A DNA stretch of 64,000 nucleotides from Escherichia coli (GCF_030013205.1 NZ_CP122648.1); one strand, 5' to 3'; counted from the first letter of the stretch, positions 6,430 through 7,989 are shown. Translations and numbers: made by a program. The notes: generated by a model not told the origin, from the letters alone.

Positions 6430-6519
6430 TCAATCAGAAAGGCGATCCATAAGAACAATAGCAAGACAATAAATTGCCACTACAGCCGCAATAGCCAGCG
6501 CGCATTTGAGAACCAGCAC
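6430..6519 (-). CDS. small hydrophobic peptide ORF (29 aa: VLVLKCALAIAAVVAIYCLAIVLMDRLSD), GTG start
   Basis: AGGAGG five nt upstream of GTG; single predicted TM helix; 70 bp downstream of the SIR2-like gene on the same strand. Below the 60-aa cutoff of the ORF track. Confidence 0.3.
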   Translation of the reverse strand: MLVLKCALAIAAVVAIYCLAIVLMDRLSD

Positions 6520-6589
6520 GATAACCTCCTGTATTGGACGTACACCAGCTCTGATAAATATGAGGCTGCCTCTTTAACTTCGCATTGCG

Positions 6590-7621
6590 CTACCAATCAA
6601 TAAAATCAGTGATGTTATCCAACCTAATTACATTAACTTCCCGTCCCAACTGGTTTTTCCAATATATCTCACGAGCGTTTTGTTCACCAGCACCGCTCCA
6701 CTCAATTACTCTTAAAGGCTTAGAGGTTAGGTAAGGTCGAATAAGCAGGTTAAGGTGAATATCGAGACCAGAGTAACCAAACAATATTATTTCTTCTGAT
6801 TCAAATAATGCAAACTGCAAATAATCCCAGTACGTAGAAAGAACATTAGATGCTGCTATAACTGACGGTTTTCTTTTTATATGAGTTAACACTATATGCT
6901 CACTAGGTTCATCTATGTCAAGAGTAAGTTGTGAGCGTGAAAGTTTTAAAACATTTTCATGCTGATTAATAAATAGTGGTGAACCATGCAAGTGCAAATA
7001 ATAACCAAACCTACGATTGTATTTCCGTTCGAGCGCTGCAGAGGAAAATCCGTGGCTTAGCATCCCATCAACTAAAACCCCATCATACCCGTTGAATATA
7101 TCATTATCTATGAATGAATTGTATAATAATTTGTCATAGTTTAATGTCGCGATATGTGAGTGTGTGTTCTTTACAAACTCCACAAGCGCATTTTCGAATC
7201 TTTGTGGCAAACCTTTATCGTAATTATGCAACCTGGTTGCAACTTTGTGAATATAAGTGGCGGTAATTTTGGGGAAGTTTAGTCCATCTTCAGTAAGCCA
7301 ATGCACGTTCCCCTCTCCAATTTGAGCAAGAGCTTTACAATATGTGACAGCCTGGTGAAGGGTATCCAACTCATGTTCTCCTTCTGGTGGACCTTGCCGC
7401 TGAAGACAACGCTCGATAAGTTGCTTGTGGATATCTTTTAAAAAATTGGGGCGATGCCAAATTTCTTCCAACGCTCTGTCTAAGGAGAAGTGAGCAGGAT
7501 CTAAAGCCATACCGAGACCGTTGCCGAATATTATTAATTTTCTTGCCATATAGGGGGACTCATTTTGGAATAACGCTGGATAGCGTAGCGCGACACGCTT
7601 AAGTTTAGGATTAATAGACAT
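6590..7621 (-). CDS. standalone SIR2-like (sirtuin-fold) protein, candidate NAD+-consuming defence effector
   Basis: 343-aa ORF with, in order, a Gly-rich motif IIFGNGLGMA (about aa 30-37), TLNYD (Asn about 161), HLHGS (His about 212) and FGYSGLD (about 281-287), matching my memory of sirtuin/SIR2_2 motifs. Gene is about 35-40% GC. Confidence 0.7.
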   Translation of the reverse strand: MSINPKLKRVALRYPALFQNESPYMARKLIIFGNGLGMALDPAHFSLDRALEEIWHRPNFLKDIHKQLIERCLQRQGPPEGEHELDTLHQAVTYCKALAQIGEGNVHWLTEDGLNFPKITATYIHKVATRLHNYDKGLPQRFENALVEFVKNTHSHIATLNYDKLLYNSFIDNDIFNGYDGVLVDGMLSHGFSSAALERKYNRRFGYYLHLHGSPLFINQHENVLKLSRSQLTLDIDEPSEHIVLTHIKRKPSVIAASNVLSTYWDYLQFALFESEEIILFGYSGLDIHLNLLIRPYLTSKPLRVIEWSGAGEQNAREIYWKNQLGREVNVIRLDNITDFIDW

Positions 7622-7794
7622 TCCGTTTGATTACACTCGTTATTACAAACTTGCATGCAAAGAAGCCCAAGCTGTTAGGTAAACAGAGACCGCAGTGGCA
7701 AGATAATCTAGATATAGCCTATAAAATCCAACAACAAATAGCGGCCTGTTTTCTATGACTTTTCTTTTCCCTAAATATCGCTTATCTAATAAAA

Positions 7795-7811
7795 TGCAAT
7801 AATGTATTGCA
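7795..7811. promoter_or_regulatory. perfect palindrome TGCAATA-ATG-TATTGCA in the AT-rich region upstream of the SIR2-like gene
   Basis: 7-bp inverted arms with 3-bp spacer, about 175 bp upstream of the SIR2-like start, in a 368-bp gap of about 32% GC. Confidence 0.3.
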
Positions 7812-7989
7812 CAGTATTTAATGTGTATTAATATAGATAAGTATTGGTCTTATTTGATAACAAATCCTGAGCCTCAAAATGTCTGCTTTTCACACAAAAC
7901 CAACAAGTAGGCTATTTTTAGCTCTGTGCCGCGAAAATGTCAATTCATATCCGAACCAATACTCTTTAATTTCATTACCTGTGACAATT

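What the first reader, a model, noticed from the sequence alone, without database searches (positions are those of the whole stretch)
6430..7989. Standalone SIR2-like gene in an AT-rich prophage moron: candidate NAD+-depleting anti-phage module
The 343-aa ORF at 6590-7621 (minus) carries four motifs in sirtuin order: Gly-rich IIFGNGLGMA, TLNYD (catalytic-type Asn about 161), HLHGS (catalytic-type His about 212) and FGYSGLD. It has no fused SLOG, TIR, HerA, STAND or Argonaute partner of the SIR2 defence systems I know (Thoeris ThsA, DSR1/DSR2, SIR2-HerA, SPARSA). The gene and its 368-bp upstream gap are about 32-40% GC against about 50% for the neighbours, so it looks horizontally acquired, with its own promoter region. 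It sits between the replication module and the hok/nin/Q region, a classic moron position. A 29-codon hydrophobic ORF follows 70 bp downstream on the same strand and an IS element flanks it.
Basis: partly seen in the sequence, partly recalled or inferred. Interest (0 to 1): 0.85.

Follow-up and report, generated by a model that had tools for sequence, protein, structure and literature searches.

The report
Lone SIR2 gene as prophage cargo
A 319-residue SIR2-type enzyme with no partner gene sits in a cargo slot of an E. coli prophage where related phages carry known anti-phage genes, so it is a credible but untested one-protein NAD+-destroying phage defence.

Summary
The ORF, its four motifs, the low G+C, the position between the replication genes and hok/Q, the small downstream ORF and the IS are all present.

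Three corrections:
- The start conserved across the family, and used by RefSeq, is 7549 (319 aa), not 7621 (343 aa).
- The 29-codon ORF belongs to the phage backbone.
- The IS481 element is an unrelated insertion into hok/sok.

It belongs to a family of about 300 clusters at 50% identity. Nearly all members are 320-350 aa and standalone, with no conserved neighbour in 82 loci.

The gene occupies a 1.36-kb exchangeable cassette (6573-7932, 38% G+C). In phage mEp460 the same slot holds a homologue of the validated defence gene PD-T7-1. Homologues elsewhere lie beside Dsr1, HsdR, HEC-05 and SoFic, or inside other prophages. dN/dS is about 0.14.

No defence or family model claims it as a member, and I found no paper on it. 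Function remains inferred. I rate it a new variant of a known kind, of moderate interest.

The parts
6590..7549 (-). SIR2 (SIR2_2/'sirim'-type) coding sequence, 319 aa plus stop. This is the RefSeq call WP_000101549, 'SIR2 family protein'.
7550..7621 (-). 24-codon in-frame leader (MSINPKLKRVALRYPALFQNESPY). It may be an N-terminal extension or part of the 5' leader; this is unresolved.
   Evidence: The motif RxxLRYPxLF and an ATG at the same place are kept in 12 close clusters. The leader is out of frame with a stop in Serratia, has no start codon in Klebsiella and is absent in Aeromonas. AF2 predicts a helix at pLDDT 64-75. The RNA fold is not significant, z = 0.41.
7511..7525 (-). GNGLG loop after strand 1 (residues 9-13), the NAD-binding glycine-rich motif.
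   Evidence: N10 and G11 are invariant; G9 and G13 are conserved in at least 90% of sequences.
7133..7147 (-). TLNYD (residues 135-139). N137 and D139 are the putative catalytic residues.
   Evidence: Y138 and D139 are invariant in both family alignments. N137 is invariant in the 66-sequence alignment and at least 90% conserved in the 68-sequence one. The profile alignment places N137/D139 on N163/D165 of PsSIR2, which PMC11472057 names as putative catalytic residues.
6980..6994 (-). HLHGS (residues 186-190). H188 is the putative catalytic His.
   Evidence: L187, H188 and G189 are invariant. H188 aligns with H212 of PsSIR2.
7550..7932 (-). AT-rich (about 0.36 G+C) upstream part of the cassette, with sigma-70-like matches. 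It presumably holds the gene's own promoter.
   Evidence: G+C. Promoter-like sites number 12 against 5.1 +/- 2.5 in shuffles of 6200-8100; the best is at 7943-7914. Part of the region is conserved with the P0002 locus. Function is inferred.
6573..7932 (.). Exchangeable cargo cassette (1,360 bp, G+C 0.38) between the phage backbone flanks.
   Evidence: Homology to phage mEp460 ends at 6572 and resumes at 7933. For HannyBb the limits are 6562 and 8000. Other cargo sits in the same slot.
7990..8397 (-). Right flank: DUF977 / Ren-like backbone gene. Not part of the unit.
   Evidence: RefSeq annotation. PHROG 142 at E 6e-45. Present whatever the cargo.
6430..6519 (-). Left flank: 29-aa hydrophobic ORF of the phage backbone. 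Not part of the unit.
   Evidence: Intact in HannyBb and mEp460, which lack the SIR2 gene. Absent beside non-prophage homologues.

Best explanation
The gene encodes a self-contained SIR2_2 ('sirim')-type NAD+ glycohydrolase that a Qin/Rac-like lambdoid prophage carries as exchangeable cargo. In some strains this prophage also encodes Stx2e.

Proposed mechanism:
1. The gene is expressed from its own AT-rich upstream region in the lysogen.
2. The enzyme is held inactive. By analogy with SIR2-HerA Sir2 and ThsA, the large helical insertion (residues about 14-130) would occlude the NAD+ pocket.
3. Infection by another phage relieves the block, through binding of a phage product and/or self-assembly into an oligomer or filament.
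4. The N137/D139/H188 site then hydrolyses NAD+. This stops the infected cell and the phage (abortive infection) and protects the lysogen population and the resident prophage.

Shown here: the SIR2 fold, the conserved catalytic residues, the standalone architecture, the cargo status, purifying selection and the association with defence genes.

Inferred: NADase activity, anti-phage effect, autoinhibition, the trigger and the promoter.
For: - No zinc module. The protein has only two Cys, C48 and C71 (sequence). This is the hallmark of the SIR2_2/sirim branch (PMC12700824; bioRxiv 2024.09.18.613514).
- Standalone family. There are 663 clusters at 90% identity and 306 at 50%, almost all 319-350 aa. 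No neighbour family occurs in more than 7 of 82 loci.
- Cargo hotspot. The cassette spans 6573-7932. The same slot in mEp460 holds a PD-T7-1 homologue at E 4e-157; PD-T7-1 is validated in PMC9519451. Other E. coli prophages carry AIPR, DUF4209, methyltransferases and other genes there.
- Defence neighbours elsewhere. Dsr1, type I HsdR, HEC-05, PDC-S25 and PDC-S66 appear among 20 tested neighbours. SoFic lies downstream in Serratia.
- Repeated prophage capture. IMG/VR holds 19 loci, including an 89% allele in the same slot and 52% homologues beside terminase and portal genes in a different prophage type.
- Selection. dN/dS is 0.14 between the two E. coli alleles and 0.10 against Serratia.
- Rare and patchy. 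The gene is in 45 of 5,426 complete E. coli genomes.
Against: - There is no experiment on any family member. I found no paper on it.
- PADLOC models give only superfamily-level scores of 17-40 bits. NCBIfam has no family model for it.
- No sensor domain is apparent, so the trigger is pure inference.
- Sir2 of SIR2-HerA, the nearest structure, needs HerA for its antiphage activity (PMC11472057), and there is no HerA here.
- In Rhodobacteraceae the gene sits in conserved synteny with housekeeping genes (pncB, ettA, nadD, eno). That looks more like a stable chromosomal gene than like defence cargo.
- No sequenced phage genome in the INPHARED collection carries it.
- No clear terminator follows the gene.
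Confidence: 0.55

Rival explanations
1. It is a defence effector but not autonomous. It would need a factor encoded elsewhere, such as a host or prophage protein or a small-molecule signal made by another system, and would act as an 'orphan' SIR2 effector module.
For: The nearest solved relatives work with partners: HerA, KomB and the ThsB signal (PMC11472057). Some family members do have add-ons. Vibrio members carry a homologous N-terminal fusion of about 190-220 aa. Four alphaproteobacterial loci have an overlapping upstream gene of about 200 aa.
Against: No neighbour is conserved across 82 loci from many phyla. The gene moves as a single-gene cassette into unrelated contexts. A trans partner would have to exist in all of these hosts.
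Confidence: 0.17
2. It is not an immune gene. It would be an NAD+-dependent protein-modifying enzyme (deacylase or ADP-ribosyltransferase) that serves host physiology or virulence, as claimed for the DUF4917 protein SliP of Campylobacter jejuni.
For: 16 of 68 family members hit Pfam DUF4917, the family of SliP, which is reported as a secreted deacetylase (PMC10421069). The carriers include pathogens: pig Stx2e/ETEC strains and O55:H7. Rhodobacteraceae copies sit in stable synteny next to NAD salvage and biosynthesis genes pncB and nadD.
Confidence: 0.15
3. It is a phage-benefit gene used in the lytic cycle or against host immunity. For example, it could consume NAD+-derived immune signals or remodel host metabolism after induction.
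For: The gene lies on the same strand as the early rightward operon, between the O-like/DUF977 genes and Q, so it would be transcribed on induction.
Against: Most family members are chromosomal and outside prophages. No sequenced phage in the INPHARED collection has it. BFVD has only weak sirtuin-like matches. The slot carries defence-type cargo in relatives.
Confidence: 0.08
4. It is a decaying, non-functional remnant in a cryptic prophage.
For: In the pig strains the prophage is defective (partial terminase gene) and carries an IS insertion next door.
Against: The ORF is intact in all 45 E. coli genomes that carry it. The two alleles differ by 10.5% in nucleotides with dN/dS 0.14. All catalytic motifs are intact.
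Confidence: 0.03

Closest known systems
Sir2 subunit of the SIR2-HerA (Nezha) anti-phage system (PDB 8w9l, 8j4u, 8sub)
   Different: There is no HerA gene next to this gene or next to any of 82 homologues. Sequence identity is only 14-17%. The protein is shorter (319 aa against about 380-415). SIR2-HerA Sir2 forms a dodecamer whose activity depends on HerA (PMC11472057); whether this protein oligomerises is unknown.
ThsA (Thoeris), KomC (Kongming) and the Avs5 SIR2 domain
   Different: This protein has no SLOG or Macro domain, and no ThsB, KomA/B or STAND module, either fused or adjacent.
DSR1 / DSR2 (defence-associated sirtuins, single-gene systems)
   Same: They are also single-gene SIR2 defence systems. 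A Dsr1 gene lies directly beside a family member in one Pseudomonas genome.
   Different: DSR1 and DSR2 are proteins of about 1,000-1,270 aa whose large C-terminal region senses phage proteins. This protein has 319 aa and only the SIR2 domain.
PADLOC candidates PDC-S21 and PDC-S25 (untested single-gene SIR2-like candidates) and PD-T7-2A (DUF4917 SIR2 with a HerA-like partner)
   Same: PDC-S21 has a profile of similar size (336 positions) and a single-gene architecture, with weak but consistent similarity at E 1e-5 to 1e-9. PD-T7-2A shows that DUF4917/SIR2_2 proteins act in E. coli defence.
   Different: Scores of 18-36 bits are at superfamily level, not membership level. PD-T7-2 needs its ATPase partner (PMC9519451).
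Human FAM118B/FAM118A (single-domain SIR2_2 sirtuins)
   Different: They are vertebrate proteins, only distantly related, and their activity needs the A/B paralogue pair.
Canonical sirtuin deacylases (CobB, Sir2Af1, SIRT1-7; Pfam PF02146)
   Different: This protein gives no PF02146 hit and has no 4-Cys zinc module. Its helical insertion is larger, and it is an accessory rather than a core gene.

Membership tests
SIR2 superfamily, SIR2_2 / 'sirim' branch (Pfam PF13289) | Significant match to the SIR2_2 profile | tested here: met
   E 3.4e-5 for this protein. 60 of 68 family members match at E <= 1e-3, with a best value of 9e-13.
SIR2 superfamily, SIR2_2 / 'sirim' branch (Pfam PF13289) | Sirtuin Rossmann fold that is closer to defence SIR2s than to canonical sirtuins | tested here: met
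SIR2 superfamily, SIR2_2 / 'sirim' branch (Pfam PF13289) | Conserved catalytic Asn/Asp and His, and a Gly-rich NAD loop | tested here: met
   N137, D139, H188 and GNGLG are invariant or conserved in at least 90% of sequences. They align with PsSIR2 N163/D165/H212.
SIR2 superfamily, SIR2_2 / 'sirim' branch (Pfam PF13289) | NAD+ hydrolase activity | not testable with these tools
   This needs an enzyme assay.
Canonical sirtuin deacylases (PF02146; CobB-type housekeeping) | PF02146 profile match and a 4-Cys zinc-binding module | tested here: not met
   No PF02146 hit. The protein has only two Cys, C48 and C71, and no CxxC (sequence).
SIR2-HerA (Nezha) | Adjacent HerA-type ATPase gene | tested here: not met
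   The neighbours are DUF977 and hok/sok. No conserved neighbour occurs in 82 loci.
Thoeris (ThsA/ThsB) | SLOG or Macro domain fused to SIR2, and a neighbouring TIR gene (ThsB) | tested here: not met
   Single domain. No TIR neighbour.
DSR1/DSR2 | Protein of about 1,000 aa or more with a large C-terminal sensor region | tested here: not met
   319 aa. It gave no match to a Dsr model in PADLOC.
SPARSA (short pAgo + SIR2-APAZ) | APAZ domain and an adjacent short Argonaute | tested here: not met
   Only a weak Aga_SIR2 hit restricted to the SIR2 core (24 bits). No Ago neighbour.
PADLOC PDC-S21 (candidate single-gene system) | Full-length, high-scoring match to the PDC-S21 models | tested here: not met
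   23-24 bits, partial coverage. Ten other family members score 18-36 bits.
DUF4917 (PF16263; includes SliP and PD-T7-2A) | Match to the DUF4917 profile | tested here: inconclusive
   No hit for this protein. 16 of 68 family members match at E <= 1e-3. The two look like related sister groups rather than one family.
Prophage moron / defence-hotspot cargo | A discrete cassette of deviant composition in a slot whose content varies among related phages | tested here: met
   The boundaries are 6572/6573 and 7932/7933, and G+C is 0.38 against 0.49. Other cargo in the slot includes a PD-T7-1 homologue.
Prophage moron / defence-hotspot cargo | Own promoter and terminator, with expression in the lysogen | tested here: inconclusive
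   Promoter-like matches are enriched (12 against 5.1 +/- 2.5), but the DNA is AT-rich. No convincing terminator was found. No expression data are available.
Anti-phage defence system (any) | Measured protection against phage | not testable with these tools
   This needs plaque and NAD+ assays.

The most novel reading that the evidence does not exclude
A 319-residue SIR2 domain is a complete immune system on its own. The same small protein would sense infection, perhaps through its helical insertion or by triggered filament assembly, and then destroy NAD+. This would define a widespread, previously unlisted single-gene defence family (about 300 clusters at 50% identity across Proteobacteria and beyond) that different prophage types have captured repeatedly. 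It would be the minimal bacterial counterpart of the human single-domain FAM118 sirtuins.
Probability: 0.4. Interest if true: 0.65.

Novelty: new variant of a known kind. Interest (0 to 1): 0.45.

Why it matters
All characterised SIR2-based defences couple the NADase to a separate sensor or partner: HerA, ThsB with SLOG, pAgo, STAND, or the large DSR C-terminal region. If a bare SIR2 domain protects on its own, it shows the minimal requirements for switching a sirim NADase on. It would also give a small, tractable model for activation by assembly, as proposed for ThsA, KomC, Avs5 and human FAM118B.

Practically, it would add a family that current defence finders miss. It would also mark the DUF977-hok/sok slot of Qin/Rac-like prophages as a defence hotspot.

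The carriers include Stx2e-encoding prophages of pig edema-disease E. coli and prophages of O55:H7. The gene could therefore influence which other phages, including therapeutic ones, can infect these strains.

Tried and rejected
- NCBIfam gave no family hit, and PHROGs gave nothing significant.
- tblastn against 50,697 phage genomes found nothing. Plasmids gave only one distant Marinobacter hit.
- Nine of the ten literature searches, on DUF4917, PDC-S21, the RefSeq accessions, standalone or single-gene SIR2, Stx2e with SIR2, lambdoid hotspots and 'SIR2-only', found no paper on this protein.
- I considered the 29-aa ORF as a membrane partner and rejected it. It is conserved in phages that lack the SIR2 gene and absent next to non-prophage homologues.
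- I considered the IS481 element as the vehicle of the gene and rejected it. It is absent in O55:H7 and Qin-type carriers, and its 6-bp target duplication shows a simple insertion into hok/sok.
- I considered DUF977 as a partner and rejected it. It is present whatever the cargo.
- I searched for a conserved neighbour by clustering ORFs from 82 loci and found none. The pncB, ettA, eno and nadD adjacencies are clade-limited synteny.
- I tested the 72-nt leader for RNA structure and found none (z = 0.41). I also modelled the 343-aa form, and the result was not decisive (pLDDT 64-75 for the extension).
- The N-terminal fusion in Vibrio proteins has no Pfam match.

Full report
**Where the window comes from.** The region 6200-8100 is 100% identical to chromosomes of pig enterotoxigenic and edema-disease E. 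coli, and 99% identical to O55:H7 strains. In those genomes it lies in a Qin/Rac-like lambdoid prophage integrated next to ompW. The gene order is int-xis-exo...dicB...dicA/dicC-ydaT-(O-like)-DUF977-[SIR2]-hokD...DUF968-rusA-Q-methyltransferase-tRNAs-stx2eAB. The terminase gene is truncated. By these coordinates the Stx2e operon lies just left of the window start.

**The observation.**
- The longest ORF is 6590-7621 (-), 343 aa.
- RefSeq annotates 6590-7549 (319 aa) as 'SIR2 family protein'.
- Nearly all homologues, down to 33% identity, begin at the Met that corresponds to 7549.
- A GAG(G) Shine-Dalgarno-like element upstream of that ATG is the only upstream feature conserved from E. coli to Aeromonas.
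They coincide with the invariant or near-invariant family columns: GNGLG, TLNYD, HLHGS and GYSGxDxH.
- G+C is 0.39 for the gene and 0.36 upstream. The window is 0.49 and the neighbouring genes are 0.51.

**What the protein is.**
- Pfam gives SIR2_2 at E 3e-5, and 60 of 68 relatives hit SIR2_2.
- An AlphaFold2 model built on a 68-sequence alignment is very confident, with pLDDT 95 and pTM 0.91.
- Against the PDB, the best Foldseek matches are the Sir2 subunits of E. coli and Paenibacillus SIR2-HerA, at E 3e-11.
- A family profile finds the same SIR2-HerA Sir2 proteins by sequence at E 3e-6. It aligns N137, D139 and H188 with N163, D165 and H212 of Paenibacillus SIR2. That study names these as the putative catalytic residues and reports that catalytic mutants lost protection (PMC11472057).
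- The protein has only two cysteines and no zinc module. Lack of the zinc module is characteristic of the SIR2_2/'sirim' immune branch rather than of deacylase sirtuins.
- On this evidence it is not a CobB-type housekeeping enzyme.

**Standalone status.**
- The family has 663 clusters at 90% identity and 306 representatives at 50% identity. Almost all are 319-350 aa.
- I fetched 79 loci from species-representative genomes: Gamma-, Alpha- and Betaproteobacteria, plus single Chloroflexota, Bacteroidota, Verrucomicrobiota and Nitrospinota.
- I clustered all ORFs within 7 kb in 82 loci. No neighbour family occurs in more than 7 loci, and those cases are local synteny within related Rhodobacteraceae.
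- The exceptions are informative. Two Vibrio clusters carry a homologous N-terminal fusion of about 190-220 aa with no Pfam match. Four alphaproteobacterial loci have an overlapping upstream gene of about 200 aa. Such add-ons are what one expects of a modular effector.

**Cargo status.**
- Homology to phages mEp460 and HannyBb stops at 6572 (6562 for HannyBb) and resumes at 7933 (8000 for HannyBb). This delimits a 1.36-kb cassette.
- In mEp460 the same slot holds a 449-aa protein that matches PADLOC PD-T7-1 at E 4e-157. PD-T7-1 was validated experimentally (PMC9519451).
- In other E. coli prophages the slot holds AIPR, DUF4209, QueH, methyltransferases, DUF1627 with an ATPase, or a GNAT gene.
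- From my own knowledge, not tested here: in K-12 Qin the genes upstream of hokD are relBE.
- The SIR2 gene is in 45 of 5,426 complete E. coli genomes, always single-copy and chromosomal. It occurs as two alleles that are 89.5% identical in nucleotides. In the five loci I inspected, which cover both alleles, it occupies the same slot.
- dN/dS is 0.14 between the two alleles and 0.10 against Serratia.
- IMG/VR contains an 89% allele in the same slot of another lambdoid phage. It also contains 52% homologues in a different prophage type, next to the terminase and portal genes.

**Association with defence genes elsewhere.**
- Among 20 large immediate neighbours from 19 loci, PADLOC identified a full-length Dsr1, a type I HsdR, HEC-05, PDC-S25 and PDC-S66.
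- In Serratia the gene lies between a PDC-M36A-like protein and SoFic.
- In the P0002 locus it lies next to a TacA/GNAT toxin-antitoxin pair and an IS fragment.
- This is a crude enrichment without a formal background.
- Other copies are single-gene islets between housekeeping genes.
- In Rhodobacteraceae the gene is syntenic with pncB, ettA, nadD or eno. This is the main contextual argument for a non-immune or domesticated role in that clade.

**What is not part of the unit.**
- The 29-codon ORF (6430-6519) has a GTG start preceded by AGGAGG. It is intact, with conservative substitutions, in HannyBb and mEp460, which lack the SIR2 gene. It is missing next to non-prophage homologues.
- The IS481-family element spans 5131-6225 with a 6-bp target duplication. 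It is inserted 14 nt upstream of the hokD start and separates hok from the sok region, which gives a complete Rfam sok match at 6220-6387. O55:H7 and Qin-type carriers lack it.

**Unresolved detail: the leader.**
- The 24 codons between 7621 and 7549 keep an ATG and the motif RxxLRYPxLF in a dozen close clusters.
- In Serratia they are out of frame with a stop. In Klebsiella there is no start codon. In Aeromonas they are absent.
- AF2 models them as a helix of moderate confidence.
- The RNA is not unusually structured.
- The leader may be a clade-specific N-terminal extension or a 5' leader.

**Known or new.**
- RefSeq already labels the gene 'SIR2 family protein'.
- No NCBIfam model and no PADLOC model claims the family as a member. 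PADLOC scores are 17-40 bits across 11 members.
- I found no paper on it. The library searched is incomplete.
- The nearest validated E. coli DUF4917/SIR2 defence protein, PD-T7-2A, needs a HerA-like partner.
- SliP of C. jejuni, a DUF4917 protein reported as a secreted deacetylase, is the basis of the main non-immune rival.

**Verdict.** The function is inferred from fold, catalytic residues, cargo slot and neighbours, not demonstrated. I rate it a new variant of a known kind, a partner-less SIR2 defence candidate, of moderate interest (0.45).

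Noticed in passing
window 5131-6225 (IS), 4961-5116 (hokD), 6220-6387 (sok): An IS481-family element with a 6-bp target duplication is inserted 14 nt upstream of the hokD start codon. It separates the toxin ORF from its promoter and the sok region, which gives a complete Rfam sok match. 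O55:H7 and Qin-type carriers lack the IS. The hok/sok module is probably disabled in this strain.
   Followed up: yes
window 6430-6519 (-): A 29-aa hydrophobic ORF (MLVLKCALAIAAVVAIYCLAIVLMDRLSD) has a GTG start with AGGAGG 6 nt upstream. It is conserved with conservative substitutions in phages HannyBb and mEp460 and is not annotated there. It is a possible small membrane protein of the phage backbone next to hok/sok. Its function is unknown.
   Followed up: partly
window 6573-7932; L004 3847-5956; L003 3337-4578: The slot between the DUF977/Ren-like gene and the 29-aa ORF/hok-sok is a cargo-exchange hotspot in Qin/Rac-like prophages. It holds a PD-T7-1 homologue in mEp460. In other E. coli it holds AIPR, DUF4209, QueH, methyltransferases, DUF1627 with an ATPase, GNAT or an alpha/beta hydrolase. 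I found no description of it as a defence hotspot in the papers I read.
   Followed up: partly
window 7550-7621 (-): A 24-codon in-frame leader with the conserved peptide motif RxxLRYPxLF occurs in the enterobacterial subclade. It is fused to the SIR2 ORF in E. coli, is in a separate frame ending in a stop in Serratia, and lacks a start codon in Klebsiella. It could be an N-terminal extension or a regulatory upstream ORF.
   Followed up: partly
P0046, P0049 (Vibrio); L039, L044, L048, L050: Some family members have add-ons. Two Vibrio clusters carry a homologous N-terminal domain of about 190-220 aa fused to the SIR2, with no Pfam match. Four alphaproteobacterial loci have a gene of about 200 aa overlapping the SIR2 start, with no PADLOC, PHROG or NCBIfam match. 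These are candidate sensor modules.
   Followed up: partly
L051, L054, L057, L087 (pncB); L056, L064, L068, L072, L074, L075, L082 (ettA; nadD in six of these): In Rhodobacteraceae the SIR2 homologue sits in conserved synteny. In four loci nicotinate phosphoribosyltransferase (pncB) lies about 45 bp upstream on the same strand. In six loci ettA is the upstream neighbour, and in six loci nadD lies 2.4 kb away. The link to NAD salvage and biosynthesis genes may be functional or may be plain synteny.
   Followed up: partly
L107-L109, L111 (IMG/VR, 44-51 kb contigs): Homologues 52% identical lie in a different prophage type. In L107 the gene is a few small ORFs downstream of the terminase large subunit and portal genes. 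This indicates independent capture of the family by unrelated prophages.
   Followed up: partly
window 1-17000 and the DNA just left of the window (NZ_CP062203.1 2779029-2780264): In the genomes that match this region exactly, the prophage carries stx2eAB immediately beyond the window's left end, after Q, a DNA methyltransferase and three tRNA genes. Its terminase gene is truncated, so it appears to be a defective Stx2e prophage next to ompW.
   Followed up: partly
L035 11248-15078; L037 2625-5723; L034 7581-9338; L018 7896-9542: The immediate neighbours of family members in Pseudomonas and Psychrobacter are a full-length Dsr1, a type I HsdR, HEC-05 and the SIR2/STALD-like candidate PDC-S25. 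These loci look like small defence islands that contain two different SIR2-type genes side by side.
   Followed up: no
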